From positions 1-36,367 of the forward strand of contig CAMDWA010000028.1 in assembly GCA_945877855.1 (NCBI GenBank): a stretch of 36,367 bases of DNA, in the 5' to 3' direction. This DNA comes from Thermoflexus hugenholtzii JAD2 (GTDB lineage: Bacteria > Chloroflexota > Anaerolineae > J036 > Brachytrichaceae). Below the pieces are notes generated by a model. The model searched no databases. It saw nothing but the letters and a program-made list of their open reading frames with translations, and was not told the origin of the DNA. The translations under genes and the position numbers were made by a program. Below, piece by piece: positions 1 through 34,950 of the stretch. Position 1 is the stretch's first letter. Every line of letters begins with the position of its first letter.

Positions 1-108
1 TCTTTTCATTGCTAACGGGCGTTTGGTTTGTGTCTTTCATACCCCTTACTTTACTTCCGTTAGCTTTCTCCCTTTCTTTTTTTGACCTCTGAAACTGCCA
101 AACTCCAG

Positions 109-156
109 TCACTATCTCCCACAGCTGCGCTGTGGGAGATAGTGAGTGAAATCGGC
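109..156. repeat. REP-like palindromic hairpin element (family 1, partial copy) just 3' of rlmN
   Basis: Inverted repeat cactatctcccacagc/gctgtgggagatagtg with the conserved right terminus GTGAAATCGGC shared with copies at 8735, 10016 and 30581. Confidence 0.6.
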
Positions 157-224
157 AAACCTTTTATCTACTCAGAATCTGCCCAAGAAATCAGGTTTCT
201 TGCAGAAACCCGATTTCTCTAGGT

Positions 225-1370
225 CTAAGCTTTGACCTTGGCTTTCAACTGCCCACAACCGGCGGCGATGTCGATGCCACGCCGCACGCGCACACTGTTG
301 GGCACACCGGCGGCATCGAGCACGGCGCAAAATTTGGCGATGCGGTCACGCTGCGAGGCAAGGCCATCGTAACCATTGGTGGGGTTAAGCGGAATCATAT
401 TGACGTGCAACATATGCCGTCGCTCACGACGCGGGTCGTAGGTTTGACGCACCACATTTACCAAAGCATGGGCTTGGTCAATCGTGTCGTTTACACCTTC
501 AATCAAGGCCCATTCAAAACTAACGCGGCGGTTGGTAATGTGAATATAGTCACGGGTGGCCTCGGTTAGCTCGCTCAAAGGGTAGCGGGCGTTGATGGGA
601 ACCAATTTGTTGCGCAATTCATCGGTGCCAGCATGGAGCGACACGGCCAAATTGACCTGCCCGCCCTCTTCAGCAAATTTGCGGATGCCCTGCACCAGCC
701 CAACGGTTGAAACGGTGACTTTGCGTGCGCCTAGCCCAATGCCGCCTTGATCTTCGGCCTCGGTCAAGCGCCGCACCGCCGTCATGACATGGTTATAGTT
801 GGCAAATGGCTCGCCCATGCCCATTAACACCACATTGGTTAATTGAGAATTTAAAATTGAAAATGAAGAATTAGGGGAATGCTCCATTTTTAATTTTTCA
901 TTCTCAATTCTCAATTGCCGATTGGCCCACAGCACTTGCTCAAAAATTTCGCTGGCGGTCAGGTTGCGCAAGAAGCCCATTTGACCAGTGGCGCAAAAGC
1001 TGCAATTCATGGCACAACCGGCCTGCGACGAAATACAGGCGGTGCGACGTGCGCCCTCATATTCCATCAACACGGTTTCGATCTCGCTGCCATCGGGCAA
1101 GCGAAACAACCATTTGCGCGTCCAGCCATCGCTCGATTCTTGTTGTAGCACTGGCGTTAGCCGCCCCAACACATAGGCAGCGCTCAGTTTGCCGCGCAGG
1201 TCTTTGCTCAGGTCGGTCATTTCGTCAATGCTGCCAACATTGCGTTGATATAGCCAGCGCCAAATTTGTTTGGCGCGAAAAGCCGGCTCACCCCACGCCA
1301 TTAATTGGGCCGCCAATTGCTCGCGGCTAAGGTCGTATAGGCTGGGCAGATGAAAGTGTAAGTCGTTCAT
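225..1370 (-). CDS. rlmN: Radical-SAM 23S rRNA (A2503-C2) / tRNA (A37-C2) methyltransferase RlmN
   Basis: 381-aa ORF with the radical-SAM CxxxCxxC motif (CAMNCSFCATG), the GMGEP motif and a C-terminal catalytic Cys (AAGCGQL); similarity runs along the full length. Contains an in-frame AT-rich palindromic insertion (see findings). Confidence 0.9.
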   Translation of the reverse strand: MNDLHFHLPSLYDLSREQLAAQLMAWGEPAFRAKQIWRWLYQRNVGSIDEMTDLSKDLRGKLSAAYVLGRLTPVLQQESSDGWTRKWLFRLPDGSEIETVLMEYEGARRTACISSQAGCAMNCSFCATGQMGFLRNLTASEIFEQVLWANRQLRIENEKLKMEHSPNSSFSILNSQLTNVVLMGMGEPFANYNHVMTAVRRLTEAEDQGGIGLGARKVTVSTVGLVQGIRKFAEEGGQVNLAVSLHAGTDELRNKLVPINARYPLSELTEATRDYIHITNRRVSFEWALIEGVNDTIDQAHALVNVVRQTYDPRRERRHMLHVNMIPLNPTNGYDGLASQRDRIAKFCAVLDAAGVPNSVRVRRGIDIAAGCGQLKAKVKA

Positions 1371-1390
1371 TTATTCCGACTCACCATACT

Positions 1391-1426
1391 CCACACCCCA
1401 CACCCCATACCCCACACCCCAAACCC
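1391..1426 (-). repeat. Heptanucleotide tandem repeat (CCACACC on + strand, GGGGTGT on the rlmN mRNA strand), a predicted G-quadruplex motif in the rlmN 5' leader
   Basis: Four C4 tracts (1396-99, 1403-06, 1410-13, 1417-20) plus one C3 tract, separated by 3-nt loops, with a 7-nt period. It lies 20-56 nt upstream of the rlmN ATG on the coding strand. Confidence 0.7.
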
Positions 1427-4502: not shown

Positions 4503-4625
4503 GGGAGCCGTGAGCCATGAGCTTTGAGCTTTGAGCCTTGAGCCTTGAGCTATGAGTCACAAGTCACGGCTCATGGCTCATGGCTCATAGCTCATGGCTC
4601 CAAAGCTCATGCCTCACGGCTCAAA
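4503..4625. repeat. Quasi-palindromic heptamer array (TGAGCNN x7, then its complement NNGCTCA x8) in the divergent promoter region
   Basis: Left arm tgagcca/tgagctt/tgagctt/tgagcct/tgagcct/tgagcta; the right arm is the complementary set cggctca/tggctca/tggctca/tagctca and so on. It sits between the GT gene start (4478, minus) and the CMD start (4642, plus). Confidence 0.75.
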
Positions 4626-4641
4626 GCTATACAATACAGAC

Positions 4642-6416: not shown

Positions 6417-6683
6417 ATTTAAAAGATGTCATGTCGGCTCCGCGACTGAAGTCGCCCCTAAAGGCTTCGCCGATTGCCCGCCTACGCGGGCAGAAATTGC
6501 GTCCCCGAAGGGGGACGCTCGGCAAAGCCTTTAAGGACGACTTCGAGTTGTCCAAAATATTCAATTCCACGATCATCTTGACCCTTACAAATTTCGATAA
6601 AAACGTTCACACTTCGTTTTAAAATAAAATATATCACAGATAATGTAATATCATTCTAATACTTCGAGCGCATACTTAGCCCT

Positions 6684-6718: not shown

Positions 6719-8704
6719 ATGCAAATTTCACTTGTTCCTTTATTATTGCTTGTGCTGCTATTTTTGATGATCCTCTTGATCATCGTGTTGTTAGCGGGCA
6801 TACGCATCATTCCCAACAATCGGGTTGGGATTGTCGAAAAAAAGTTTAGCGGTAAAGGCTCGGTTAAATCTGGGTTTATTGCCCTCAACGGCGAAGCTGG
6901 TTTTCAGCCACAGGTATTGCGCGGTGGCATTCATTATCTGATGCCATTTCAATACTCGGTGCATGTCGTGCCATTGGTCACGATTCCCCAAGGCAAAATC
7001 GGCTATATATTTGCGCGTGACGGGTTAATGTTAAACGCCACCCAAAGTTTGGCCTCCAACTTAACCGCCAGCGATTTTCAAGATGTGGTGGGCTTTTTGA
7101 AGAATGACGGCCAACGTGGCCCACAACGCCAAATTCTGCGCGAAGGCACTTATGCCATCAACTTAGTGCAATTTATTGTCATTACCGAAGAGCGTGTGTT
7201 TTATCTGCCCATTAACCGTGATGAAACGCAGATGATTCAAAATATGGCGACGGTCATCGGTGAACGCAAAGGCTTTACCCCGCTGGTGATCAAAGATTCT
7301 GACGACCTCATTGGTATTATTACAGTGCATGATGGCCCATCGTTGCCCCAAGGCGAGATTATTGCGCCGGTGCGTGGCGACGATGCCAATAACCGCGAAA
7401 CGTATCACAACAATTTTCAAGATGCCGACCGCTTTTTGCTGGCGGGTGGGATGCGCGGCAGACAATTACAGGTGATGGTTGAAGGCACTTATTACATCAA
7501 CCGCCTATTTGCGACGGTTGAAATGGTGAAAAAGACCATTATTGATGTGGGTAATGTCGGCGTGATCATCTTTTACACCGGTAATGTTGGCGAAGACATT
7601 TCGGGGGCCGACTATAAACATGGTGAATTGGTGCGCAAAGGCTATCGCGGGGTATGGGAAGAGCCGATGCTACCCGGCAAATATGCGCTAAATACCTATG
7701 CGGCACGGGTGGTGATTGTGCCAACCACTAACTTTATTCTCAAGTGGAACCGCAGCGAAGTGGGCGCCCATCGTTTTGACGAAAACTTGTCAGAGGTGTC
7801 GCTCATTACCAAAGACGCTTTCGAGCCGCTTTTGCCGTTGTCAGTGGTGGTGCATATCGATTATCGCAAAGCCCCGTTGGTCATTCAACGCTTTGGCGAT
7901 GTAAAACGCTTGGTTGAACAAACGCTTGACCCAATGGTAGCGGCCTATTTTAAGAATGTGGGCCAAACCCGCACCCTGATTCAGCTCATTCAGGAGCGCA
8001 GCGATATTCAAAAGATATCGAGCACCGAGATGAAAGAGAAGTTTACCCACTATAACCTTGAGCTAGAAGAGGTGCTCATTGGCACACCGACAGCAGCCAA
8101 GGGCGACCTCCAAATCGAAACCATTTTGACGCAATTGCGCCAGCGCCAAATTGCGCAAGAAAAGATCGAGACGTATCAACGTCAAGAACAGGCGGCGGTG
8201 CAAGAACGAGTGTTACGCGAAGCCGAATCGCGGGCCGAGCAACAAACCCGCATCACCGAGTCGGAATTGAACATTATGGTGCAAGGCAACCAAGGCAAGG
8301 CCGATTATCAACGCGCCGTGCAACAATCGGCCCAAATTCGTATTTTGGCCGAGGCCGAAGCCGAAAAAGCCGCCAGAATTGGGATTGGGCAAGCCTTGGC
8401 GATTGATGAACAAGTGCGGGCCTATGGTGGGCCACAATATCAAGTGACACAACAAGTGATGAATCGCTTTGCCGAAGCGATTGAGGCGGCTGGGGTCGAT
8501 GTTGTGCCACGCATCTCGATCAGCGGTGGCGCTGGTGGGGGGGCTGGCAGCAATAATTTGATGGAAGGGTTGATGGCGATGTTGTTGTCGGAGCGCATGG
8601 GGGTGACGTTAAATACGCCCAATACCCCGCGCAGTCCCGAAGCCGAAGCCATGCGCAAACAGATTATGGAAAGTTTGGCGAAAAAGTCTGAGGCATCTTC
8701 TTAA
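6719..8704 (+). CDS. SPFH/band-7 flotillin-like protein (YqiK/FloT-like)
   Basis: N-terminal TM helix, a PHB/SPFH core, and a long E/A/Q-rich coiled coil (EAEAEKAARIG...) typical of flotillins. Confidence 0.6.
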   Translation: MQISLVPLLLLVLLFLMILLIIVLLAGIRIIPNNRVGIVEKKFSGKGSVKSGFIALNGEAGFQPQVLRGGIHYLMPFQYSVHVVPLVTIPQGKIGYIFARDGLMLNATQSLASNLTASDFQDVVGFLKNDGQRGPQRQILREGTYAINLVQFIVITEERVFYLPINRDETQMIQNMATVIGERKGFTPLVIKDSDDLIGIITVHDGPSLPQGEIIAPVRGDDANNRETYHNNFQDADRFLLAGGMRGRQLQVMVEGTYYINRLFATVEMVKKTIIDVGNVGVIIFYTGNVGEDISGADYKHGELVRKGYRGVWEEPMLPGKYALNTYAARVVIVPTTNFILKWNRSEVGAHRFDENLSEVSLITKDAFEPLLPLSVVVHIDYRKAPLVIQRFGDVKRLVEQTLDPMVAAYFKNVGQTRTLIQLIQERSDIQKISSTEMKEKFTHYNLELEEVLIGTPTAAKGDLQIETILTQLRQRQIAQEKIETYQRQEQAAVQERVLREAESRAEQQTRITESELNIMVQGNQGKADYQRAVQQSAQIRILAEAEAEKAARIGIGQALAIDEQVRAYGGPQYQVTQQVMNRFAEAIEAAGVDVVPRISISGGAGGGAGSNNLMEGLMAMLLSERMGVTLNTPNTPRSPEAEAMRKQIMESLAKKSEASS

Positions 8705-8734
8705 TATACCAAGAAAAGATAAAAATTAAGAAAA

Positions 8735-8782
8735 CGCCGATTTCACACTCCCTCCGCAATCGGAGAGAGTGTGAAATCGGCG
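8735..8782. repeat. REP-like palindromic hairpin element (family 1) 3' of the flotillin gene
   Basis: cgccgatttcacactccctccg-caat-cggagagagtgtgaaatcggcg. Conserved termini GCCGATTTCAC/GTGAAATCGGC with a variable but self-complementary CTCCC/GGGAG core. Confidence 0.75.
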
Positions 8783-8801
8783 AAATTTGTTTTCATGGCG
8801 G

Positions 8802-8985
8802 CTGTTTGTCGCAAGGCTGTTCAAAAGTCAGCACGCTACTTAACCCGTCATCTCCGCGAACGCGGAGATCCATAACGTGTCATGGCAAAATTGCGGAAAA
8901 CCAGTCAACCTATGCCTGTCTGGTTATAGATTCCAGCTTTCGCGGGAATGACGAGGCGACTTTTGAACAGCCTTGCTGTTTGTCG
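8802..8985. mobile_element. MITE-like non-autonomous element (164 bp) with 18-bp perfect terminal inverted repeats and a 10-bp target-site duplication
   Basis: TIR-L caaggctgttcaaaagtc (8812-8829) is the exact reverse complement of TIR-R gacttttgaacagccttg (8958-8975). Both are flanked by the direct repeat ctgtttgtcg (8802-8811 and 8976-8985). There is an internal 9-bp-stem hairpin atctccgcg-aa-cgcggagat. No transposase ORF is present. Confidence 0.7.
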
Positions 8986-9040
8986 AGCGCAGCTTGACAA
9001 GCGAATTATTGTTATTGGCAAAGGTATCATACTCAGCCTG

Positions 9041-10012
9041 ATGTCTAATGCAACCAACCTAACACTACGCGCCTATCGTGGTCTTGTCGATCATCCCGCG
9101 ATGATCTCACTTACGAATGCCTGCCACCAACACGAAGGGGTAGAAGAATTTGAAACGGCAGAAAGTCTGCAACATTTTTTACATTTTCCGCACAGCGATC
9201 CTGAGTATGACATCATTGTCGCCGAAAATGCTGAGGGGATCATCGGTTATGCCCATACCTTTTGGCGAAAAAATCGCGATAACAGTATCGTGCATTATGT
9301 TTTTGTCTTTGTCCATCCCGATCAACAACGCCAAGGCGTGGGCACAAGGTTATTCGCCCAACTCCAACACCGCATTGCGGCGCTGACACAACAAACCGAA
9401 CCCAACAGCCCCCATCTATTACTCACTTATGTGCAAGAAAAAGAAGCGGCAGCCCAAGCCTTTGTAAACAAACACGGTTTTGGCGTTGCACGCTATTTAT
9501 ATGAGATGGTATGCCCGCTTGAACATTTGCCAAATTGTGATGATTACCCATTACCTGCCCATATTGAATTGCGACCAGCCTTGCCAGCCCATGACCGCGC
9601 CATTTACAATGCCCGCCGCGAAGCCTTTCTCGATCATTGGGGGTCGGCGCTACCCAGCGAAGAAGAATTTCAGGCATGGATAAACGATGAACAGCGCGAC
9701 CCAAGTAGGTATGTGATTGCCTGGGCCAATGACCAAGTGGCGGGCATGGTGCTCAATGAAATTAACCACAGTGAAAATGAAGCCAGTGGGCGCAAACGCG
9801 GCTATACCGACCCAATTGCGGTGCGGCGGCCTTGGCGCAAACAAGGCTTGGCAACGGCCATGCTGGTGCGCAGTTTGCACCTATTGCGTCAACATGGCAT
9901 GAGTGAGGCTGCACTGAGCGTTGACACCGAAAACCCGAGTGGGGCATTACGAATTTATGAACGCTTGGGGTTTAAAGCGGTAAAAAAGATCGTCGCTTAT
10001 CAAAAACTGTAA
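9041..10012 (+). CDS. Tandem-GNAT N-acetyltransferase, MshD (mycothiol synthase)-like architecture
   Basis: Two GNAT acetyl-CoA binding cores: VFVHPDQQRQGVGTRLF and IAVRRPWRKQGLATAMLVRSL...RLGF. The track ORF (8948) extends upstream into the MITE, so the start was set at MSNATNL; the start is uncertain. Confidence 0.6.
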   Translation: MSNATNLTLRAYRGLVDHPAMISLTNACHQHEGVEEFETAESLQHFLHFPHSDPEYDIIVAENAEGIIGYAHTFWRKNRDNSIVHYVFVFVHPDQQRQGVGTRLFAQLQHRIAALTQQTEPNSPHLLLTYVQEKEAAAQAFVNKHGFGVARYLYEMVCPLEHLPNCDDYPLPAHIELRPALPAHDRAIYNARREAFLDHWGSALPSEEEFQAWINDEQRDPSRYVIAWANDQVAGMVLNEINHSENEASGRKRGYTDPIAVRRPWRKQGLATAMLVRSLHLLRQHGMSEAALSVDTENPSGALRIYERLGFKAVKKIVAYQKL

Positions 10013-10015
10013 TAT

Positions 10016-10075
10016 GCCGATTTCACTATCTCCCTCCCATAGCTACGCTGTGGGAGGGAGATAGTGAAATCGGCC
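10016..10075. repeat. REP-like palindromic hairpin element (family 1, full copy) 3' of the GNAT gene
   Basis: gccgatttcac-tatctccctcccatagc-tacg-ctgtgggagggagata-gtgaaatcggc, a perfect hairpin. Confidence 0.8.
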
Positions 10076-10288
10076 CTTCATCTTTATCGGAATTTGCTTT
10101 ATTTAAACAAAAAACGCGAGTGTTTACTCGCGTTTTTTGTTTATCTGCCAGCCCTAGCAGCTATCTAGGCGATGCAATGTGACAGGTCTTTTGCCTTAGG
10201 TCTTAATCCCCCTATTCTCTCTATCTTTATCAAGGTGATAGCGGTCGGGATATCTCTTATGCTCACATGCATTCGAGGGATATATAAA

Positions 10289-11188
10289 ATGCCAAAGTCT
10301 CTACTCACTGCAATTATCACTGTCTTCATCATGCTGGTCGGGCCAAGCATTGCCAAAGCCACCCCACCCACCCCCATTAGCTCATTGGCAGGCTGGAACG
10401 CTGAATATTGGGACAATGCCGAGCAAAATGGCGAACCCATTCTCAGCCGCATGGATGGGGCAATTAATTTTAATTGGGGCAACGCTGCCCCCAACAGTGA
10501 GTTGCCAAGCGATCATTTCTCGGTGCGTTGGTTGCAAACCATCAGTGTGCCAGCCGGTCGCTATCGTTTTACGCTCTATGCCGATGATGGCATTCGTATC
10601 TTTGTCAATCATAAGCTGGTGCTAAACCGCTGGGACAACCAAGGCTATCAAGTCCATTCGGTAACGGTAGACCTTGAAGGTGGTGGTGACTTGGTGCGCA
10701 TTGACTATGTTGATCGTGGTGGCAGTGCCCGTGTGCAACTCAAGGCCCAACGCATTACCCTTGCGGCTACGGCTGCCCCACAACGTGAATTGCGCCCAGT
10801 CAGCAAAAGCAACAACCGCCCCTGGGAAATTGCATTTTTTAACAATACCGAACTGAAGGGCGAACCGATTCACACCCTGCAAGCCACCAATGCCAATTTT
10901 GATTGGGGCAAATCGAAGCCCAAATTGGTAACGCAAAACGGTTTCTCGGTGCGCATGACCAAGCGTGAATATTTGGGGGCTGGTAATTATCGCTTTATCG
11001 TGGCCGCCGATGATGGCATTCGCATGTTCGTAGATGGCAAATTGGTAGTGAATGACTGGCAACCCGCCCGCAACCATATTTCACGCAGCACTGGGCTAGC
11101 GCTCGACACTGGCTTTCATGAGATCGTGGTCGAATATTTCAATCAAGGCAGCAGCTCACAACTTAATGTGACGTGGGAATTGTCATAA
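10289..11188 (+). CDS. Secreted protein with two tandem PA14 domains
   Basis: Signal peptide (MPKSLLTAIITVFIMLVGPSIAKA), then two repeats of the PA14 pattern (GW/WE..F.N..L.GEP...DFNWG...FSVRW...G.YRF...ADDG.R.FV...LV.N.W). The track ORF starts further upstream, at 10172. Confidence 0.75.
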   Translation: MPKSLLTAIITVFIMLVGPSIAKATPPTPISSLAGWNAEYWDNAEQNGEPILSRMDGAINFNWGNAAPNSELPSDHFSVRWLQTISVPAGRYRFTLYADDGIRIFVNHKLVLNRWDNQGYQVHSVTVDLEGGGDLVRIDYVDRGGSARVQLKAQRITLAATAAPQRELRPVSKSNNRPWEIAFFNNTELKGEPIHTLQATNANFDWGKSKPKLVTQNGFSVRMTKREYLGAGNYRFIVAADDGIRMFVDGKLVVNDWQPARNHISRSTGLALDTGFHEIVVEYFNQGSSSQLNVTWELS

Positions 11189-13869: not shown

Positions 13870-14840
13870 TCACCCCCCTGATGGGTAGCACGGCACTGGC
13901 TTGTTGGATAGTGCACAACAACCTCACAAGACCAGTCCGCGTTGACGCAAATGCAGCACTCACCCTGCTATCAATTGAGGCGGTGGGCGCGTTTGTCTGG
14001 CTTGCTTGCGCGGCTCGTGCGGGGGCAGATGCCCAGCAACTGACAGTTGCTGGGCATCTACTCACCCTTAATTGATGGCAAACGTAACACTCACCACGCC
14101 ATCAATTGAGGCAGTGATGGGGTTAGTCTGGCGTGCTTGCGCGGCTCATGCGGGTGCAGATGCACCGCACCTCGCAGGTGCGGCGCATCTACTCACCCCA
14201 CGTTGGTGGCAAATGCAACGCTCACCCCGCCCTCAATTGAGGCAGTGATGGGGTTAGTCTGGCTTGCTTGCGCGGCTCGTCCGGATGCAGATGCACCGCA
14301 CCTCGCAGGTGCGGCGCATCTACTCACCCTTAAATTGATGGCAATGCAACGCTTACCCCGCCCTCAATTGAGGCAGTGGGCGCGGTCATTTGGCTTGCTT
14401 GCGCGGCTCGTGCGGGGGCAGATGCCCAGCAACTGACAGTTGCTGGGCATCTACTCACCCTTAATTGATGGCAAACGTAACACTAACCCCGCCATCAATT
14501 GAGGCAGTGACGGGGTTAGTCTAGCTTGCTTGCGCGGCTCATGCGGGTGCAGATGCGCCGCACCTGCGAGGTGCGGCGCATCTACTCACCCTTAAATTGG
14601 TGGCAAATGTAACACTCACCCTGCCCTCAATTGAGGCGGTGACGGGGTTAGTCTGGCGTGCTTGCGCGGCTCGTGCAGGTGCAGATGCCCAGCAACTGGC
14701 AGTTGCTGGGCATCTACTCACCCTTAAATTGATGGCAAATGCAACGCTCACCCCACCCTCAATTAAGGCGGTGGGCGCGGTCGTTTGGCTGGCTTGCGCG
14801 GATCGTGCGGGTGCAGATGCGCCGCACCTGCGAAGGGCGA
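13870..14840. repeat. Tandem array of about 7.4 units of ~131 bp (130-133 bp), each with two conserved hairpins and two alternating variants
   Basis: Unit starts (motif caattgagg) at 13971, 14104, 14234, 14365, 14496, 14628 and 14760. Variant A hairpin is gatgcccagcaactg-aca-cagttgctgggcatc; variant B hairpin is gatgcgccgcacct-gcg-aggtgcggcgcatc. A second hairpin, aattgatggc...gcc(a/c)tcaatt, spans the unit junctions. Confidence 0.85.
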
Positions 14841-14968: not shown

Positions 14969-17839
14969 TTAACCGGAGGCCCGAGCGGAGAATCGGGGCG
15001 CACTACTCACCAAACGAAAACCGTCGTTGCTGTCACGGATGTCTACATGGGAGTCGTCACGGACCGCCGCCCGCGCATCCGTATCATAGTTATACCACGA
15101 CCCGCCGCGCACGACCCGCTTTTTTATATTTTCTATACTTGGGTCTTCACGTTCCAAATTCGCCTGATATGGATACGCTAAGTAAGCACTGCTCGTCCAT
15201 TCCCACACATTACCGCATAAATCGCTAATGCCTTCAGGCGTTTCGCCCTCGGCAAAGAGACCAATCGGGGTGGTGCGACGAATATGACGCTCGAACGTAT
15301 TGCATTGACTGGCTTCAAATTTTTCGCCATACGCATAGGCACGCGCCCGCCCGCGCCGGTCAGGTTGACCCCGCGCTGCGGCCTCCCACTGCGCTTCGCT
15401 CGGCAAAACATAGCGGCTGCCAATTTGGGCACTCAGCCACAAACCATAGGCCCGCGCCTCATGCCAACATACCCCCACCACCGGCTGGCTGGGCTGGTTA
15501 AAGGCGCTGTCTTCCCAAAACCGCGGCTGCAGCGGCACCTCACCCATCGGAAAGGTTTTAGCCAACCACGCTTCAAAGGCCTCATCACTCCAATTGCGAA
15601 GCGTATGCCAAGCTCGCGCTTGGGTTGAGGTGCAGCGTTGTTGCGCCAATAAATGGTCGATATAGTCCTCCTCCCAGCTTTTTATAGCTTGTCTGCTGCT
15701 TCGCCAGCCCTCGCGCTGGCCTGCCACCGCACCTTCGGGGGTGCGAAAATAGCTTGCGGCTGGCGTATCCCACCAACGGGCATCGCTATAACCACCCGCA
15801 CGCATAAAACAAGCAAATTCGGCATTGGTGACCGGAAACTTACCCATGCGAAATGCATCCAACTTGACGCGGTGCACATGCTTAGCATTATCATACGACT
15901 GGTCTTGGTCGCCCAGCACATAGTCACCGGCCTCAATGGCGATCATGGGCGGCAACAGATATTCATGCCCCAGCTTGCCCATGCGCCGCTCAAAACGCGG
16001 GTCGCCCAGCCCCCCCAACGCCTCACCGGCGGCAATCCGCGCCCGTAGGTCGGCGTTGCGGTCTTGGCTGCGGGCAATCAAGCCTTGCTGCAACTCGTGC
16101 AACAAGGTGGTCGCCAGCTTGGGCTTGACCTGCGCCGCCACCTCGGCCGCCAACGGCAAGTTGAGCGGCATCAGGCTGGCAATCAGCGCATTCGGCTGCT
16201 CACTCAGTTGGGCCGCCAATTTCAGCGTTTCGGCCCAGCCGCTGCGATCGAGCGGCGGCAATGGCTCATAATCTTGGGCGGTTGCCAGCCACTGCGCCAA
16301 ACTCGGCTGCACCGCCTCGGCCTGCCACGCAATCGCCGCCAGCGGCGCATCAAATTGGCGGGCCGCACGGCGGGCCGCAAAAAATTCTTGCAGCAATTGA
16401 TGATAAAACCAAAACTCCTCGCGTTGGCGATCTTCATCTAGCACCGTCAGGGCCACGCCTGCCGTCAGCACCTCGCGCGCCCGTGGGTGTTGCAACACGT
16501 CGCAGGCGCGGGCTTCGTCCAACGTCACCCGCCCACCCGCGCCAGCCAGCCCTTGGCATTGCATGGCATAGGCCAATTCGCTTAGCTTGGGCATGAGCAA
16601 CCCGCGTTCGGGCAAACGCAGGTTGGTTTGGGTATCAACACGGGTGACATCTTCACGGTCACGCAGGTCGAATAGCGCTTCGTCCAGCAGCAGTGCATTC
16701 TTGCCCTCCACCTCGCGGCGGGCGGCGCGCCGCACCAGCTCGGCAAATAACTCGGCGCGGCTAGCCGGAATTTGCCCGGCCCGCTCATTCACCAAATCGC
16801 ACAATATTTTGGCGAAATAAGGCGTGGCATATAACGCAAGTTGCTCAGGCTGGTCCTTGATCTTGCCCCATATCGCAGCGGCGTGTTTGGGCGTATGTTG
16901 CTGCAAAAACGCCTCAAGCTGAACCGCATTGAGCACCTTCAGCGTGATCTGGCGCACATCCACATCGTCTTTCACGCTTAGGGTTTGGCTATAGTCGAGG
17001 CTGCGGCAGGTAAACACGGCGCGATTGCCCGATGGCAGGTCATCGCGCAAAAAATCGCGCCAGCGTTCCACCTGTTTGCCATATACCGCCCCGTTTGGGT
17101 GTGGCATCTCGTTCAGTGCATCCAACAACAGCAACACACACCCTTGCGCCAAAAAATAATCGAGCGGCGGCAGGGTGACATGAAAGCGCTTCAGCGTTTG
17201 CTGCCATTGTTGCGCCAGCCACTCGGCTGGGTCGGGCGCGTCGGGCGTGTATTTGTTGAGTGTAACAAACAATGTCACACTCAGCTGGGGTTGGTCTGCC
17301 GCCAAATACTCGGTCGCGCTTTGCCATTGCAGGCGGCGCAGCAAGGTGGTTTTGCCGCCGCCCGGCACCCCCAGCAGCACCAGCGACGGGTCGGTGATTT
17401 CCGCATCCGCCAGAACCTCGCTCAGGTCTTGGTAATCGTGGTCGCGCTCGGCAAAGCTCAGGCTGGTGTCGGTTTTTTGGCGGTCGAGCAGCCGCATCCG
17501 CACAAAACGGGTGTCAATTTGGCGCTTTTGGGCCAAATCTTTCGCCACTGCGCGATGATATGCCGTCAATGCGGCTTGGGTGGCGGCGGGGTCGGGCGCG
17601 GGTTGGGCATCGGCAAAGCTGATATTCGGGCGGGCCTCACGCACGGCTTGCAGTAATTTGGCATAATCGCCACGCGATTCGCAATGCTTAATCAAGTTCA
17701 TGGCGAACTTGGGTTGGGTATTGCGCTCAAAATCCTCGTCTCCAATCCCCAACTCAAAACACAACAGTTCGAGTTCGTCTGTTTTGAAATGCGCCTTCAA
17801 TGCCGCATAAAGTTGTTGCTGGGTTGGGGTATGGGGCAT
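14969..17839 (-). CDS. STAND NTPase: N-terminal death-like/effector-associated helical domain, NACHT P-loop NTPase, HEAT-like repeats and a C-terminal FGE-sulfatase (SUMF1-like, C-type-lectin fold) domain
   Basis: Walker A LLGVPGGGKTTLL, a NACHT-type Walker B LLLLDALNEM, and a HEAT-like AAGEALGGLGDPR. FGE motifs: HRVKLDAFRMGKFPVTNAEF, GNVWEWTSS, RVVRGGSW...GFRLV. The N-terminus carries LxxALKAHFxxxELELLCFELGIGDEDF. Confidence 0.8.
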   Translation of the reverse strand: MPHTPTQQQLYAALKAHFKTDELELLCFELGIGDEDFERNTQPKFAMNLIKHCESRGDYAKLLQAVREARPNISFADAQPAPDPAATQAALTAYHRAVAKDLAQKRQIDTRFVRMRLLDRQKTDTSLSFAERDHDYQDLSEVLADAEITDPSLVLLGVPGGGKTTLLRRLQWQSATEYLAADQPQLSVTLFVTLNKYTPDAPDPAEWLAQQWQQTLKRFHVTLPPLDYFLAQGCVLLLLDALNEMPHPNGAVYGKQVERWRDFLRDDLPSGNRAVFTCRSLDYSQTLSVKDDVDVRQITLKVLNAVQLEAFLQQHTPKHAAAIWGKIKDQPEQLALYATPYFAKILCDLVNERAGQIPASRAELFAELVRRAARREVEGKNALLLDEALFDLRDREDVTRVDTQTNLRLPERGLLMPKLSELAYAMQCQGLAGAGGRVTLDEARACDVLQHPRAREVLTAGVALTVLDEDRQREEFWFYHQLLQEFFAARRAARQFDAPLAAIAWQAEAVQPSLAQWLATAQDYEPLPPLDRSGWAETLKLAAQLSEQPNALIASLMPLNLPLAAEVAAQVKPKLATTLLHELQQGLIARSQDRNADLRARIAAGEALGGLGDPRFERRMGKLGHEYLLPPMIAIEAGDYVLGDQDQSYDNAKHVHRVKLDAFRMGKFPVTNAEFACFMRAGGYSDARWWDTPAASYFRTPEGAVAGQREGWRSSRQAIKSWEEDYIDHLLAQQRCTSTQARAWHTLRNWSDEAFEAWLAKTFPMGEVPLQPRFWEDSAFNQPSQPVVGVCWHEARAYGLWLSAQIGSRYVLPSEAQWEAAARGQPDRRGRARAYAYGEKFEASQCNTFERHIRRTTPIGLFAEGETPEGISDLCGNVWEWTSSAYLAYPYQANLEREDPSIENIKKRVVRGGSWYNYDTDARAAVRDDSHVDIRDSNDGFRLVSSAPRFSARASG
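14995..15112 (-). other. Putative DGR variable region (VR) at the C-terminus of the FGE domain
   Basis: RGGSW-YNYDTDARAAVRDDSHVDIRDSNDGFRLV. The scaffold positions match the canonical FGE-type template pattern RGGSWNNN..AR.A.R......GFR, and the variable codons are mostly NNC/NNT (tat aac tat gat...gac tcc cat gta gac atc cgt gac agc aac gac), as expected for AAC/AAT-derived mutagenesis. Confidence 0.5.
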
Positions 17840-20722: not shown

Positions 20723-20805
20723 TCATCCGATCGATAACCAACGGCCTTCACAACCAATTTTCGCAAAAACGTATAAGGATCAAAATGATAAAAAAATTAT
20801 CCTGT

Positions 20806-20868
20806 CCATCCTGCCTATCCATGTGCATAACCCTATAAAACATGGATAGGCAGGATGGGCAAGATAAG
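20806..20868. terminator. 18-bp perfect inverted repeat (ccatcctgcctatccatg / catggataggcaggatgg) with a 27-nt loop between convergent uvrB and the NuoN-like gene
   Basis: Read directly. The loop is unusually long for an intrinsic terminator, so this could instead be a protein-binding palindrome or a mini-element. Confidence 0.4.
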
Positions 20869-23194: not shown

Positions 23195-23371
23195 GTTGTA
23201 AGATGATTATAAGTCATGTGGCATTTCAGTCATGCGAGGATAAACGAGGGTTTGACGATTATTAAAAGATAGACCAAGCAAGAGAAAAATCGGCGCAAAT
23301 CGCATTTTTATACCTATCTTAGTATAAAAGCTGTGATACTTTTGCGATTGCCACGTATATTTATTTAGAAC

Positions 23372-24963: not shown

Positions 24964-24965
24964 GA

Positions 24966-25068
24966 GTGGCAGGAGGCAAGTGGCAGGTAGCAAGTGGCAA
25001 GTAAAAAGTATCTAACTACTTTGCACTTTGCACTTTGCACTTGCCACTTGCCACCTGCCACCTGCCCC
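24966..25068. repeat. Quasi-palindromic heptamer array (GTGGCAR x~7 / YTGCCAC x~7) followed by a T-tract; probable terminator or attenuator between the anti-sigma and ABC genes
   Basis: gtggcag gaggcaa gtggcag gtagcaa gtggcaa ... tttgcac x3 ttgccac x2 ctgccac ctgcccc, then tttttt and the ABC ATG at 25075. Confidence 0.75.
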
Positions 25069-25074
25069 TTTTTT

Positions 25075-25998
25075 ATGTTCGTTATCGAAACCCAACACCT
25101 GCAAAAACAATTTGGCAATAAGCTAGCCGTTGCCGATCTTACGCTCACGGTCAACTCAGGCGAGGTGTTTGGGTTTCTGGGGCCAAATGGGGCAGGTAAA
25201 AGCACCTCAATTAAAATGTTGTTGGGGTTAGTCAAACCCAGTGCGGGCAACTGTTGGGTATTGGGGTTGCCGCCCGGCAATGTGCAAGCTCGCCGCAAAA
25301 TTGGCTTTTTGCCCGAGCATTTTCGTTTTCACGATTGGCTGACCGGACGCGAGTTTCTGCATTTTCACGGGCGGTTATATGGCATGTCGGGCCAAGCACT
25401 CAAACAACGGATCGAGACATTGCTGGCGCGGGTCGCCTTGTTAGAAGCGGGCGACCGCAAATTGCAACAATATAGCAAAGGCATGTTGCAGCGCATCGGG
25501 TTGGCAATGGCCTTGCTCAATCACCCCCAAATTGTCTTTTTAGACGAGCCAACCTCAGGGCTTGACCCATTAGGCCGCCTGCTGGTGCGCGATATCATCA
25601 CGGAAATACGCAACGAAGGCACTACTGTCTTTCTAAATTCGCACTTGCTCAGCGAAATCGAAGTGACGTGTAACCGCGTGGTTTTTCTCAAGCGCGGCAA
25701 TGTGGTGCGCGAAATCAACTTAAAAGACAATGAAATTCATATCAACGAACTCGAACTAAAATTGGGGCCGGTCGATGACAGCATTTTGCAAGGGTTAGCC
25801 CAATTTGGCAGCAATGCCCATCGAGATGGCGACCTCATTCGCATGAATATTCAAGACGAAGCCAGCCTGCCACAACTGGCCCGTTGGCTGGTCGGCCAAG
25901 GTTGCGAAATTTATCGCCTCGCTGCCCATCACCCATCGCTTGAACAACTGTTTGTTGAAACCATGACCGAAGAAAATAAGTTAACCATTGATGGTTAA
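25075..25998 (+). CDS. ABC transporter ATP-binding protein (ABC-2 / exporter type)
   Basis: Walker A GPNGAGKST, signature YSKGMLQRIGLA, and Walker B IVFLDEPTSGLD. Confidence 0.85.
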   Translation: MFVIETQHLQKQFGNKLAVADLTLTVNSGEVFGFLGPNGAGKSTSIKMLLGLVKPSAGNCWVLGLPPGNVQARRKIGFLPEHFRFHDWLTGREFLHFHGRLYGMSGQALKQRIETLLARVALLEAGDRKLQQYSKGMLQRIGLAMALLNHPQIVFLDEPTSGLDPLGRLLVRDIITEIRNEGTTVFLNSHLLSEIEVTCNRVVFLKRGNVVREINLKDNEIHINELELKLGPVDDSILQGLAQFGSNAHRDGDLIRMNIQDEASLPQLARWLVGQGCEIYRLAAHHPSLEQLFVETMTEENKLTIDG

Positions 25999-26078
25999 TG
26001 ATTAATGGTCAATGATTAATGGTTAATGATTAATGGTTAATGATTAATGATTAATGATTAATGATTAATGATTAATGG
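25995..26078. repeat. Heptanucleotide microsatellite TTAATGR x12 spanning the ABC ATPase stop codon and the permease start codon
   Basis: Units counted directly as ttaatga, ttaatgg, tcaatga, ttaatgg, ttaatga, ttaatgg, ttaatga x5, ttaatgg. The ATPase TAA (25996-98) is in unit 1 and the candidate permease ATG (26068) is in unit 11. Confidence 0.85.
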
Positions 26079-26946: not shown

Positions 26947-26972
26947 ATTTACCGCATTTTCTCAATCATTGG

Positions 26973-27075
26973 GAGCATCCCCAAAAGACGTAACGCCGAA
27001 CGCACTGTCACTTTGTGTTTGAAGAGGGCAAAGCCTTCTTCAAACACAAAGTGACAGTGCGTTCGGCGAAAATAG
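26973..27075. repeat. ~100-bp palindromic MITE-like element (family 2, copy 1, inverted orientation)
   Basis: cgccgaacgcactgtcactttgtgtttgaagagggcaaagccttcttcaaacacaaagtgacagtgcgttcggcg plus the tail ggggatgc...cgtcttttgg. Near-identical to the copies at 32410 and 34717. Confidence 0.8.
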
Positions 27076-27166
27076 ATTTTGATTTCCCCTGTTTATTGAA
27101 TAGATATAAAAATACAATATAATATTACAGCAAAACTGAAAATCTATAATATTTCGGGGGTGTCTC

Positions 27167-30519: not shown

Positions 30520-30580
30520 TCAAACAATAAAATAGCTTTTTCGCTTGACATTGTCATATTCGCAAATGCCAATAGGTTTT

Positions 30581-30634
30581 CGCCAATTTCACGATCCCCA
30601 CTCAGCATAGCTAAGTGGGGATCGTGAAATCGAC
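30581..30634. repeat. REP-like palindromic hairpin element (family 1 variant) 3' of the DUF2177 gene
   Basis: gccaatttcac-gatccccact-cagcatagc-taagtggggatc-gtgaaatcgac. Confidence 0.7.
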
Positions 30635-30702
30635 ATACCTCTTGCTTAATCTGGCCTTGTCAAGTTAGTATAACGAATACCAAATACATCCTTTCCGAAA
30701 AA

Positions 30703-32352: not shown

Positions 32353-32409
32353 TTTTAGCGTTTAGATTTACAATTAAAATAATTCAAAAATAGCGAAGAT
32401 TAAAACAAA

Positions 32410-32510
32410 TTTTCGCCGAACTCACTATCATTTTGTGTTTGGAGAGGGCTTTGCCCTCTCCAAACACAAAATGATAGTGAGTTCGGCATTACGTCTTTTG
32501 GGGACGCCCC
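32410..32510. repeat. ~100-bp palindromic MITE-like element (family 2, copy 2)
   Basis: ttttcgccgaactcactatcattttgtgtttggagagggctttgccctctccaaacacaaaatgatagtgagttcggcattacgtcttttggggacgcccc. Confidence 0.8.
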
Positions 32511-32548
32511 AATGATTAAAAGATACAAAAATTCAATCGTCAATCATA

Positions 32549-34707: not shown

Positions 34708-34716
34708 TGAATTTAT

Positions 34717-34816
34717 TTTCGCCGAACTCACTATCACTTCGTGTTTGGAGAAGGCAAAGCCTTCTCCAAACACAAAGTGATAGTGAGTTCGGCATTACGT
34801 CTTTTATGGTCACCCC
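34717..34816. repeat. ~100-bp palindromic MITE-like element (family 2, copy 3)
   Basis: ttttcgccgaactcactatcacttcgtgtttggagaaggcaaagccttctccaaacacaaagtgatagtgagttcggcattacgtcttttatggtcacccc. Confidence 0.8.
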
Positions 34817-34836
34817 AAATTATTGGAAAAATACTA

Positions 34837-34873
34837 AAAAGCCTTGATTTCTGATCAAAATCAAGGCTTTTTT
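34837..34873. terminator. Bidirectional rho-independent terminator (stem aaaagccttgatt / aatcaaggctttt, with T/A tracts on both sides)
   Basis: Hairpin followed by TTTTTT on the + strand (hut operon side) and by TTTTT on the minus strand immediately 3' of the tRNA. Confidence 0.7.
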
Positions 34874-34876
34874 ATA

Positions 34877-34950
34877 CGCCCTCAGAGAGACTCGAACTCC
34901 CGACCTAGGCATTAGAAGGGCCGCGCTCTATCCACCTGAGCTATGAGGGC
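34877..34950 (-). tRNA. tRNA-Arg (anticodon TCT), no encoded CCA
   Basis: Minus-strand sequence GCCCTCATAGCTCAGGTGGATAGAGCGCGGCCCTTCTAATGCCTAGGTCGGGAGTTCGAGTCTCTCTGAGGGCG. Clover-leaf with a 7-bp acceptor stem, GCTC/GAGC D-stem, T-arm GGGAG-TTCGAGT-CTCTC and anticodon loop CTTCTAA. The anticodon stem has only 3 Watson-Crick pairs (C:U at 27:43 and 31:39). Confidence 0.7.

What the first reader, a model, noticed from the sequence alone, without database searches (positions are those of the whole stretch)
8735..10075. REP-like hairpin family with fixed termini (GCCGATTTCAC ... GTGAAATCGGC) and a variable, compensatory CTCCC/GGGAG core at the 3' ends of four genes
Copies at 109-156 (partial), 8735-8782, 10016-10075 and 30581-30634 share the outer stem but have different inner arms (tatctccctccca, actccctccg, gatccccact). 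Each inner arm pairs perfectly with its own partner. All copies lie just downstream of stop codons (rlmN, the flotillin-like gene, the GNAT gene, the DUF2177 gene). The pyrimidine-rich CTCCC arm is anti-SD-like, so as RNA these could act as terminators or stabilisers, or sequester ribosomes.
Basis: seen in the sequence. Interest (0 to 1): 0.5.

Follow-up and report, generated by a model that had tools for sequence, protein, structure and literature searches.

The report
Palindromic core of a Chloroflexota MITE-like repeat
The hairpins are real, but they are the central palindrome of a roughly 100-base, non-coding, probably mobile repeat that litters the spaces between genes in a group of uncultured Chloroflexota, and their matching arm changes come from DNA-level copying between the arms, not from selection on an RNA.

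Summary
Hairpins with GCCGATTTCAC/GTGAAATCGGC termini lie at 97-156 (degenerate), 8736-8781, 10016-10074 and 30582-30634, each 3-68 nt after a stop codon. Three longer relatives (26995-27067, 32415-32487, 34721-34793) and one internally deleted relic (23268-23326) were missed.

Each hairpin is the core of a 95-125-nt imperfect palindrome with asymmetric, subfamily-specific flanks. At least 33 copies occur in each of two related Chloroflexota MAGs.

- Across 55 copies, 98% of stem cells pair and 17 of 28 pairs show double changes. Pairing is strictly Watson-Crick: G·U is no commoner than C·A, and there is no strand or orientation bias.
- Orthologous copies in close strains differ by paired substitutions (P<3e-6), a symmetric indel and flipped loops.
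- Copies are deleted, absent or replaced in relatives.
- One superfamily member has a filled/empty site with a 9-bp target duplication.
- 17% of placed copies sit in divergent spacers.

Best reading: a MITE/REPIN-like selfish repeat whose arms are homogenised by template switching or by conversion between copies. No transposase was found. The terminator and anti-SD ideas are not supported; mRNA stabilisation was not tested. This is a new member of a known kind, of modest interest.

The parts
97..187 (+). Degenerate subfamily-i copy. Core hairpin is 97-156, with a decayed left terminus and a TCAC duplication. The Y flank AAACCTTTTATCTACTCAGAATCTGCCCAAG is 157-187. It lies 68 nt downstream of the RlmN stop (gene 225-1370, minus strand).
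   Evidence: Covariance-model hit E=5e-10. Flank matches the subfamily-i consensus. Pfam RlmN_N/Radical_SAM.
8705..8801 (+). Subfamily-ii element. X flank TATACCAAGAAAAGATAAAAATTAAGAAAAC is 8705-8735, core hairpin 8736-8781 (short 46-nt form, one C.A mismatch), Y flank 8782-8801. It starts directly after the SPFH/Band-7 stop (8702-8704).
   Evidence: (I21). Orthologues in L001 and L087 differ by a compensated pair and a flipped loop.
10016..10105 (-). Subfamily-i element in reverse orientation. Core hairpin is 10016-10074 (59 nt, one T.G). X flank, read on the minus strand, is 10075-10105. The Y flank is missing: the GNAT stop codon is 3 nt away. A separate canonical bidirectional terminator follows at 10101-10146.
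   Evidence: (I8, I25). Identical in REEB501 (L025) and in four further assemblies. Absent from the orthologous spacer in L087.
30544..30664 (-). Complete subfamily-iii element (121 nt). Y flank is 30544-30581, core hairpin 30582-30634, X flank 30635-30664, with outer inverted repeat CTTGACATTGTCA / TGGCCTTGTCAAG. It lies between the DUF2177 stop (30519) and the urocanase start (30703).
   Evidence: (I23). Four-strain orthologue alignment shows paired changes and a loop flip.
26957..27106 (+). Long-form superfamily member. Core palindrome 26995-27067 has GCCGAACGCAC termini and 36-nt arms. Flanks are TTTTCTCAATCATTGGGAG..AAAAGACGTAAC and GAAAATAGATTTTGATTTCCCC..ATTGAATAGATA.
   Evidence: (I4). 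The orthologue L040:169 differs by two compensated pairs.
32381..32528 (-). Long-form superfamily member. Core is 32415-32487 (35-nt perfect arms), between urocanase and a cupin gene.
   Evidence: (I3). The orthologue in L092 has several changes mirrored on both arms, including a 1-nt deletion on each arm. In L091/L093 the site instead holds a PIN toxin-antitoxin pair.
34709..34835 (-). Long-form superfamily member. Core is 34721-34793, 13 nt after the amidohydrolase stop. A canonical terminator (34832-34876) and a tRNA (34877-34950, minus strand) follow.
   Evidence: (I5).
23268..23326 (-). Internally deleted relic of a subfamily-ii element in a divergent spacer. The outer arms and GCCGATTT remain. 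Relative to REEB501 (L040:3908-3962), 60 nt including the hairpin are missing, with AAA microhomology at the junction.

Best explanation
The hairpins are the central, near-perfect palindrome of a family (really a superfamily) of small non-coding repeats, 95-125 bp long. Each repeat is one long imperfect palindrome made of:
- subfamily-specific outer inverted arms;
- an asymmetric A-rich junction (..AAAAGAYGWAKK | core | GAAAAC..);
- a 46-75-bp core whose base is conserved as GCCGA-NNN-CAC-(T/G)AT.

They behave as non-autonomous mobile DNA of the MITE / REPIN kind. They are scattered in intergenic spacers in either orientation, tolerated best just after stop codons, and gained, lost, truncated and nested between close strains.

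The compensatory look of the core arises in the DNA. A change on one arm is copied to the other arm, either by replication template switching within the hairpin-forming repeat or by conversion between copies. The same processes flip the 3-nt loop. Hairpin-stimulated slippage deletes cores.

Shown here: family, anatomy, dispersal, Watson-Crick-only covariation, paired changes in place, loop flips, deletion, presence/absence, and one 9-bp target duplication in a superfamily member.

Inferred, not shown: the transposase; the choice between template switching and inter-copy conversion; and any effect of the transcribed hairpin on neighbouring mRNAs.
For: Abundance and identity
- The window is 91-99% identical to REEB501.
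- A covariance model finds about 95 sites in 457 kb, with equal scores on both strands.

Anatomy
- Flanks are conserved, asymmetric and fall into subfamilies whose outer arms are themselves inverted repeats.
- No outer arms were found without a core.

Covariation
- 98.1% of 1444 cells are paired, 17 of 28 pairs show double changes, and 208 cells are compensated, with 0 of 500 shuffles reaching this.
- There are only about 12 G.U cells against 27 non-pairs.
- Mismatches are C.A 25 vs G.T 17; in the sense strand, G.U 12 vs C.A 10.

Changes in place at orthologous sites
- 6 compensated pairs in 4 orthologue pairs, where about 0.4 is expected (0 of 300,000 simulations reached 6).
- Further paired changes across four strains at the 30582 copy (my reading of the alignment).
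- A 1-nt deletion on both arms at the 32415 copy (my reading of the sequences).
- Loops are flipped relative to fixed flanks in L004/L056, L087 and L093.
- Loop orientation is random relative to flank orientation: TAC 13 / GTA 10, ATA 5 / TAT 3.

Turnover
- A 60-nt core deletion in the window.
- The 10016 copy is absent from the orthologous site in L087.
- A different palindrome occupies window 6436-6591.
- L004:2169-2282 is flanked by the 9-bp repeat CTATTTTAA, while the orthologous L056 site is empty and carries a single CTATTTTAA.

Placement and orientation
- Orientation relative to the upstream gene is 21 same vs 15 opposite.
- Placement is tandem 35, convergent 8, divergent 9.

Literature
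- REPINs show invariant ends with a compensated spacer (PMC3116915).
- Template switching homogenises inverted-repeat arms and inverts spacers (PMC8604942).
- MITE features are summarised in PMC10969869.
Against: - No transposase or full-length parent element was found. There is none among the genes of the window, none flanked by copies, and no high-identity multicopy ORF among 399 ORFs in 440 kb of loci. The sample is small.
- The clean filled/empty site with a target duplication belongs to a short-core relative with GCCCAACGCAC termini, not to a GCCGATTTCAC copy.
- Over 72 copies, flanking 9-mer direct repeats are not enriched (12 observed vs 14.5 in the null).
- The most conserved part is the base of the inner core, not the outer termini. 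This is unusual for a MITE moved by a terminal-inverted-repeat-binding transposase.
- Conservation of the termini is partly an ascertainment effect of the exact-match scan.
- Gene calls used for the placement statistics are crude longest-ORF calls.
Confidence: 0.68

Rival explanations
1. Host-selected RNA element. Transcribed as part of the upstream gene's 3' UTR, the hairpin stabilises the mRNA against 3' exonucleases, terminates transcription, or masks SD/anti-SD-like sequences. The compensatory changes reflect selection on RNA pairing.
For: - All window copies follow stop codons.
- In tandem spacers, copies are closer to the stop in 24 of 34 cases, with medians of 47 vs 97 nt.
- The stems are very stable, z = -6 to -14.
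- One orientation of some copies is followed by a T-rich tail and is flagged as terminator-like (8735-8782, minus strand only).
- E. coli REPs and ERIC/Correia elements are known to affect mRNA fate (PMC3733652, PMC10969869).
Against: - G.U pairs are not favoured over C.A, and there is no sense-strand bias.
- By my reading of the sequences, four of the five mismatches in the window copies are C.A in the sense RNA.
- Element orientation is random relative to the gene.
- 17% of placed copies are in divergent spacers.
- A copy is deleted, and another is absent at the orthologous site in close relatives, which instead carry ordinary terminators.
- Canonical terminators follow two window copies.
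- Symmetric indels and loop flips are not produced by selection on RNA.
- Only 13 of 55 copies have GGAGG.
Confidence: 0.12
2. True REPIN-RAYT system. The conserved halves are REP sequences recognised as single-stranded DNA hairpins by a domesticated Y1/HUH transposase encoded once in the genome. The variable middle only has to pair.
For: - The layout matches REPINs: invariant ends with a variable, compensated spacer forming one long hairpin (PMC3116915).
- The inner core base is conserved rather than the outer termini.
- The same 11-mer termini enclose an unrelated interior in another Anaerolineae MAG, and that interior looks like a GTAG-tagged REP.
- GTAG REPs have been reported in Chloroflexi (PMC3733652).
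Against: - There is no GTAG or CGTC tag at the ends of the halves, and the halves are not themselves small palindromes.
- No Y1 transposase was seen in the window or next to copies.
- A superfamily member shows a 9-bp target duplication, which IS200/IS605-type single-strand transposition does not make (established knowledge of that family).
Confidence: 0.12
3. DNA-level host site. The palindromes are binding or cruciform sites for a nucleoid, topoisomerase or recombination protein that recognises GCCGATTTCAC as a dyad, as BIMEs bind gyrase and IHF in E. coli.
For: - Strict DNA-level palindromy.
- Dyad-symmetric conserved 11-mers shared by subfamilies with different outer arms and by other Chloroflexota lineages.
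Against: - Spacing between the two 11-mers varies from 10 to 50 nt.
- Copies are dispensable between close strains.
- Nothing in the data points to a partner protein. This cannot be tested with these tools.
Confidence: 0.05

Closest known systems
REPINs (REP doublets forming hairpins) of Pseudomonas fluorescens and other RAYT-carrying bacteria (Bertels & Rainey 2011, PMC3116915)
   Same: - Dispersed, extragenic, roughly 100-nt long hairpins.
- Two invariant inverted end regions separated by a less conserved middle whose only visible constraint is pairing; compensatory changes are common.
- Singlets and relics arise by decay.
   Different: - No GTAG-tagged REP unit in each half.
- No RAYT gene found.
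- Asymmetric conserved flanks and outer inverted arms lie beyond the conserved core.
- A relative carries a 9-bp target duplication.
Prokaryotic MITEs built as long imperfect palindromes: ERIC/IRU of enterobacteria, Correia/NEMIS of Neisseria, Nezha and other cyanobacterial MITEs (review PMC10969869)
   Same: - About 100-130 bp, non-coding and AT-rich at the edges.
- Intergenic, in both orientations, often in 3' UTRs.
- Fold into long stem-loops when transcribed.
- Occur as subfamilies, with internal deletion variants and strain-specific presence or absence.
- Direct repeats that fade with age.
   Different: - Here the inner core base, not the termini, is the best conserved part.
- The parent insertion sequence is unknown.
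- A target duplication is documented for one relative only.
- The host phylum (Chloroflexota) does not appear in that review.
E. coli REP/BIME elements
   Same: - Extragenic palindromes enriched after stop codons.
- Potential mRNA 3' stabilisers.
   Different: - REPs are 20-40 nt, imperfect, GC-rich and GTAG-tagged, and are organised as BIME clusters with gyrase and IHF sites.
- The present cores are 46-75 nt, near perfect, and embedded in a larger unit.
Quasipalindrome template-switch mutagenesis and short inverted-repeat homogenisation (Ripley model; Lovett laboratory, PMC7202029; PMC8604942)
   Same: Produces what is seen at orthologous copies: changes copied from one arm to the other, multi-nucleotide and indel changes mirrored on both arms, and inversion of short spacers between long arms.
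   Different: It is a mutational mechanism, not an element family. It is inferred here from sequence comparison only, and conversion between dispersed copies could give similar patterns.
Integron attC sites
   Same: Imperfect palindromes with conserved ends and a variable, self-complementary middle, located at the 3' ends of genes.
   Different: - No GTTRRRY / RYYYAAC core sites and no extrahelical bases.
- No cassette array or integrase.
- Neighbouring genes are housekeeping genes in conserved synteny.

Membership tests
MITE (prokaryotic miniature inverted-repeat transposable element) | Small (tens to a few hundred bp), no coding capacity | tested here: met
   Elements are 95-125 nt (up to about 150 nt for long forms). 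They lie in spacers between called genes.
MITE (prokaryotic miniature inverted-repeat transposable element) | Terminal inverted repeats | tested here: met
   Outer arms are inverted repeats in each subfamily: TAGAGCAAATTCC/GGAATCTGCTCTA, TATACTAAGAAAGG/CTTTCTTAGTATA, CTTGACAATGTCA/TGACATTGTCAAG, TATCATCTCAA/TTGAGATAATA.
MITE (prokaryotic miniature inverted-repeat transposable element) | Target-site duplication; filled versus empty sites | tested here: inconclusive
   Met for one superfamily member: L004:2169-2282 has a 9-bp CTATTTTAA on both sides, and the orthologous L056 site is empty. No enrichment of flanking 9-mer repeats over 72 copies. The absence of the 10016 copy in L087 is too diverged to define a junction.
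MITE (prokaryotic miniature inverted-repeat transposable element) | Many dispersed copies, intergenic, in both orientations | tested here: met
   At least 33-34 copies per MAG, with the scan truncated. Copies are intergenic and in both orientations.
MITE (prokaryotic miniature inverted-repeat transposable element) | Cognate autonomous insertion sequence with the same ends in the genome | not testable with these tools
   None found in the window or in 440 kb of loci.
REP / REPIN-RAYT | REP unit: a 20-40-nt imperfect palindrome tagged at one end by GTAG (or CGTC) | tested here: not met
   The conserved halves begin GCCGA and are not self-complementary. GTAG occurs only inside some loops (GCGTAGC).
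REP / REPIN-RAYT | Two conserved inverted ends with a variable spacer that keeps its pairing, forming one long hairpin | tested here: met
REP / REPIN-RAYT | A RAYT (Y1/HUH, PF01797) gene flanked by the repeats | not testable with these tools
   Not seen among genes flanked by copies or in the window.
REP / REPIN-RAYT | Single-strand transposition without target duplication | tested here: inconclusive
   A relative shows a 9-bp duplication. Most copies show none.
Intrinsic (Rho-independent) terminator | GC-rich stem immediately followed by a U-tract on the transcribed strand | tested here: not met
   In the one region scanned (window 8500-10400), the only family hairpin flagged as terminator-like was the minus strand of 8735-8782, antisense to the upstream gene. 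By my reading of the flanks, they are GAAAAC / CCTTCATC rather than T-runs. Separate canonical terminators follow two copies.
Structured RNA family (Rfam) | Match to a curated covariance model; covariation that includes G.U and a preferred strand | tested here: not met
   No hit at gathering score. At the E-value threshold there were only generic sub-threshold hits, none near gathering score; the best-scoring ones over the hairpins were to miRNA-precursor models. G.U is not favoured and both strands score alike.
Integron attC | R''/L''-L'/R' organisation with GTTRRRY core, extrahelical bases, cassette array | tested here: not met
   Termini are GCCGATTTCAC, stems are near perfect, and neighbours are housekeeping genes in conserved synteny.

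The most novel reading that the evidence does not exclude
The conserved dyad GCCGA-NNN-CAC at the base of the core is the real functional unit. It is shared by subfamilies with unrelated outer arms, and in another Anaerolineae MAG it encloses an unrelated interior. On this reading it is the recognition site of a hairpin-specific enzyme not yet described for this phylum: a RAYT-like or other structure-specific nuclease/recombinase working on folded single-stranded DNA. The variable stem is free to drift as long as it pairs. This would make the family a REPIN-like system with a new tag and possibly a new enzyme.
Probability: 0.12. Interest if true: 0.6.

Novelty: new member of a known kind. Interest (0 to 1): 0.3.

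Why it matters
It adds a well-resolved family of small palindromic mobile repeats to Chloroflexota. That phylum does not appear in the MITE review consulted, and searches of the held literature found no description of these repeats.

It is also a warning for genome scans. Textbook-looking compensatory covariation (98% pairing, 17 covarying pairs) can arise entirely at the DNA level in palindromic repeats. The tell-tale signs are:
- Watson-Crick-only pairing;
- no strand bias;
- symmetric indels;
- flipped loops.

The orthologous series across several strains gives a natural record of arm homogenisation and spacer inversion in bacteria, which is usually studied only with reporter genes.

In practice, these repeats break MAG assemblies and should be masked before searching for RNA motifs in this lineage.

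Tried and rejected
1. Core as a separate module inserted into older repeats. Rejected: no outer arms without a core were found, although the sample is biased towards core-bearing loci.
2. General 9-bp target duplications. No enrichment over shuffled pairings.
3. Transposase or RAYT search. Pfam on genes flanked by copies and on all sizeable window ORFs, and an all-against-all search of 399 ORFs for multicopy proteins, found only ordinary paralogues.
4. Rfam at gathering and E-value thresholds. Only the tRNA reached gathering score; the rest were sub-threshold generic hits.
5. Strand test for RNA selection using G.U versus C.A. No bias.
6. Orientation test against the upstream gene. No bias.
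7. Viral contigs scan. No match.
8. Metagenome scan for GNAT relatives. One irrelevant hit.
9. Single hits of the pattern in Streptomyces, Sporosarcina, Nesterenkonia and others. I treat these as chance matches among ordinary hairpins, based on a back-of-envelope estimate for a 596-Gb collection. The hits in L029, L042 and L077 are a separate real family.
10. The first simulation used one pair in the wrong orientation. It was redone.
Full report
OBSERVATION

The inverted-repeat scan gives these arms:
- 28 nt at 10016-10074, 96% complementary;
- 22 nt at 8735-8782, 95%;
- 21 nt at 30586-30630, 95%;
- 20 nt at 106-148, 95%.

The 11-mer GTGAAATCGGC occurs five times exactly in 36 kb. With up to two mismatches there are 33 matches against 15 +/- 3.6 in shuffles.

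The hairpins lie 68, 31, 3 and 62 nt after their stop codons.

Three corrections are needed:
- The first copy runs from 97 to 156 and has a decayed terminus.
- Each copy carries one or more mismatches, so the arms do not pair perfectly.
- The window holds three longer relatives with GCCGAAC[T/G]CAC termini and 35-36-nt arms (26995-27067, 32415-32487, 34721-34793). It also holds an internally deleted relic at 23268-23326.

A LARGE FAMILY IN A FEW CHLOROFLEXOTA

At least 33 were from MAG REEB501, 34 from CAZLOF01 (labelled Thermoflexus sp.) and 10 from Anaerolineae AQU-02.

The window is 91-99% identical to REEB501 contigs. CAZLOF01 is 90-95% identical to REEB501 where loci overlap. The two hairpins flanking the GNAT gene recur base for base in two and four further assemblies respectively. 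None was found in viral contigs.

The copies share this plan: GCCGATTTCAC, then (T/G)AT, then 8-12 variable and mostly pyrimidine positions, then (C)AAGC or CTGCC, then a 3-nt loop (GTA, TAC, ATA...), then the complement.

A generic hairpin search shows a wider superfamily. In it the three middle bases of the terminus also vary with compensation (TTT, AAA, ACT, ACG, TCT, GTT, TTG), while GCCGA and CAC-TAT stay put. A covariance model built from 55 copies finds about 95 sites in 457 kb. It scores both strands alike and picks up the long forms at E of 1e-8 to 1e-11.

THE HAIRPIN IS ONLY THE CORE OF A LARGER UNIT

The flanks are conserved and are not symmetric. Aligning 70 nt on each side separates subfamilies:
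- Subfamily i: TAGAGCAAATTCCTAAAAGATGAAGG | core | AAAACCTTTCATCAACTCGGAATCTGCTCTA
- Subfamily ii: TATACTAAGAAAGGGTAAAAATTGAGGAAAT | core | GAAAACC.CAATTTTTGAG.CTTTCTTAGTATA
- Subfamily iii: AACTTGACAATGTCAGATTAAAAAGACGTAT | core | GAAAACTTGTTTTCATTTGCTAATGTGACAATGTCAAG
- Long form: TCTCAATAATTGGGG..CCCCAAAAGACGTAAT | core | GAAAAT..ATTTCCCC..TTATTGAGA

In each subfamily the outer parts are again inverted repeats. The whole unit is therefore a 95-125-nt imperfect palindrome with an orientation. No outer arms without a core were seen. The window copies can be assigned as follows:
- 97-187 is subfamily i.
- 8705-8801 is subfamily ii.
- 10016-10105 is subfamily i, reversed and lacking one flank.
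- 30544-30664 is a complete subfamily iii element.

COVARIATION IS STRONG BUT HAS A DNA SIGNATURE

On the 55-copy alignment:
- 98.1% of 1444 cells form a standard pair, against 82% in shuffles and about 40% when partners are slid.
- 17 of 28 pairs change on both sides, and 208 cells are compensated.
- G.U or U.G fills only about 12 cells, while 27 cells are non-pairs.

Over 81 hairpins, 51 of 2177 stem positions are mismatched. C.A accounts for 25 and G.T for 17. Relative to the gene whose 3' end abuts the copy, G.U in the sense strand occurs 12 times and C.A 10 times.

An RNA helix under selection uses G.U freely and shows a preferred strand. A DNA palindrome does neither, because a G.T on one strand is a C.A on the other.

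The pyrimidine-rich 5' arm is real (68% pyrimidine), but only 13 of 55 copies contain GGAGG in the 3' arm. The long forms have a different core. I read the bias as inheritance from a common ancestor, not as an anti-SD device.

CHANGES HAPPEN IN PLACE AND IN PAIRS

Orthologous copies in close strains could be compared directly.
- Window 8736 against L001: one compensated pair and one single change.
- Window 26995 against L040: two compensated pairs and two singles.
- L019 against L050: two compensated transversion pairs and one loop change.
- L004 against L056: one compensated pair, two singles and a loop reading GGA against TCC between unchanged flanks.

That makes six compensated pairs where random placement of the same number of changes gives about 0.4. 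None of 300,000 simulations reached six.

Loci fetched through homologues of the neighbouring genes extend this.
- At the 30582 copy, four strains differ by G-C/C-G at pair 12, A-T/C-G at pair 13, A.C/A-T at pair 4, and a loop ATA against TAT.
- In the same alignment I count 12 of 54 variable hairpin columns against 16 of 137 in the flanking spacer. This is about the same rate once each pair is counted as one event.
- At the 32415 copy, the L092 orthologue differs by several mirrored changes, including a one-base deletion on both arms.
- At the 8736 copy, L087 has the loop ATTG where the window has CAAT, with identical flanks.

Across all oriented copies, loop orientation is random relative to flank orientation: TAC 13 / GTA 10, ATA 5 / TAT 3, AAA 5 / TTT 3.

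Arm homogenisation and spacer inversion are the two known products of polymerase template switching in short inverted repeats (PMC8604942; PMC7202029). Conversion between dispersed copies that share about 50 nt of flank and terminus on each side could give the same picture. I cannot separate the two. Both act on DNA.

TURNOVER AND MOBILITY

- The REEB501 copy L040:3908-3962 lies in a divergent spacer. In the window, 60 nt including the core are missing, with AAA microhomology at the junction and the outer arms retained. This is the classical hairpin-stimulated deletion.
- L001:2507 is a 55-nt GTCGAAATCAC hairpin where the window has a different, longer palindrome (6436-6591).
- The 10016 copy and the terminator that follows it are absent after the GNAT gene of L087 (88% protein identity). 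More distant orthologues (L088, L090) have a plain intrinsic terminator there.
- The 32415 site holds a PIN toxin-antitoxin pair in L091 and L093.
- The clearest case is L004:2169-2282, a 114-nt element. It has a short GCCCAACGCACTATG-TCA-TATAGTGGGTTGGGC core, long-form-type flanks and TATCATCTCAA/TTGAGATAATA ends. It is bracketed by CTATTTTAA on both sides, while the orthologous L056 site has one CTATTTTAA and no element. That is a 9-bp target duplication.
- Over 72 copies, however, flanking 9-mer repeats are not enriched. No transposase turned up in the window, next to copies, or as a multicopy ORF in 440 kb.

PLACEMENT

These figures rest on crude longest-ORF gene calls.
- Copies are intergenic. 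The seven "in ORF" calls appear to be spurious ORFs; one is contradicted by its orthologue.
- Of 52 copies with two neighbours, 35 are in tandem spacers, 8 in convergent spacers and 9 in divergent spacers. The background of spacers of at least 60 nt is 107:39:47.
- In tandem spacers, 24 copies are closer to the stop codon and 10 closer to the start codon, with medians of 47 and 97 nt.
- Element orientation relative to the upstream gene is 21 same and 15 opposite.

This is what purifying selection against insertions in promoters and leaders would leave. It does not require a 3'-end function.

TERMINATOR AND RNA READINGS

In window 8500-10400, the consensus scan flags only the minus strand of 8735-8782 as terminator-like, and that strand is antisense to the upstream gene. 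The flanks next to the core are GAAAAC and CCTTCATC, not T-runs. Two window copies are followed within 30-40 nt by canonical terminators. Rfam has no family for the hairpin.

When transcribed, the core will certainly fold. It may then protect or destabilise mRNAs, as ERIC and Correia elements do. That is a side effect I can neither show nor exclude.

COMPARISON WITH KNOWN KINDS

The layout is that of REPINs, where invariant ends enclose a spacer constrained only to pair and "compensatory changes ... are common" (PMC3116915). It also matches long palindromic MITEs such as ERIC and Correia.

It fails the REP definition on the GTAG/CGTC tag. It cannot be tested for a RAYT. It meets the MITE criteria of size, inverted ends, copy number and placement. 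A target duplication is shown for one relative only, and no parent element is known.

Searches of the held literature found no description of such repeats in Chloroflexota or Anaerolineae.

VERDICT

This is a new member of a known kind. The covariation is real but is a property of palindromic DNA, not evidence for a functional RNA.

Confidence is about 0.68 for the MITE/REPIN-like selfish-repeat reading with DNA-level arm homogenisation. It is 0.12 each for a host RNA function and for a true RAYT system.

Noticed in passing
window 13947-14830 and 14969-17839(-): A 131-nt tandem repeat (6.7 copies, 83% matches) carrying 37-41-nt palindromes lies beside a 956-aa EAD7-NACHT-FGE-sulfatase protein, a defence-like architecture. 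The 4.2-kb segment 13684-17851 is missing from REEB501 contig L025, which keeps about one repeat unit.
   Followed up: partly
window 1384-1426, 4505-4628, 24965-25070, 25987-26079; also L088:3600-4100: Heptamer tandem repeats (GAGCCTT, ACTTTGC, ATTAATG, CCACACC), often arranged as inverted blocks and reminiscent of cyanobacterial STRR repeats. Copy number differs between the window and REEB501 (35-nt indel). Long arrays fill the GNAT-PA14 spacer of AQU-02.
   Followed up: partly
window 8800-8988: A second, unrelated repeat of about 190 nt bounded by inverted repeats (GGCTGTTTGTCGCAAGGCTGTTCAAAAGTC ... GACTTTTGAACAGCCTTGCTGTTTGTCGAGC) abuts the 8736 element. It has copies in L003, L048, L001 and L087.
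   Followed up: partly
window 6436-6591 vs L001:2507-2561: At one orthologous spacer the window has a 42-nt-arm, 79% complementary palindrome, where REEB501 has a 55-nt GTCGAAATCAC hairpin. Both begin GTCG and end TTTCGA(C/T).
   Followed up: partly
window 33514-33576: A 26-nt-arm palindrome (88% complementary, covariance-model E about 4e-6) lies inside the reading frame of the imidazolonepropionase-like amidohydrolase gene, overlapping its N-terminal Pfam match.
   Followed up: no
window 20797-20867: A 28-nt-arm palindrome (93% complementary) of a different sequence type lies in the convergent spacer after uvrB.
   Followed up: no
L029:357-427, L077:2652-2725, L042:7714-7789: A longer palindrome, AACCACAGATTAC-GCCGATTTCACAGATT...AATCTGTGAAATCGGC-GTAATCTGTGGTT, is shared by an Ardenticatenia MAG, Candidatus Promineofilum and a Gemmataceae (Planctomycetota) MAG. 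It contains the same 11-mer in an otherwise different repeat.
   Followed up: no
L009:773-823, L039:3021-3071, L052:1461-1511, L054:2082-2131: In another Anaerolineae MAG (T10), four copies have the same 11-nt termini but an unrelated interior, GAGTAGCCCGCAGGGCGTATC, which looks like a GTAG-tagged REP. A related inverted copy lies just upstream in two of the loci.
   Followed up: no
L091:4350-5023 and L093:2493-3166 vs window 32352-32549: In two close strains, a small antitoxin-like ORF plus a PIN-domain toxin sits between urocanase and the cupin gene, where the window and L092 have the long-form palindromic element.
   Followed up: no
L002, L008, L010, L012, L051, L058, L062, L070 (contig ends): Many copies lie within about 100 nt of a MAG contig end. 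This suggests the repeats break short-read assemblies, so copy numbers in MAGs are underestimates.
   Followed up: no
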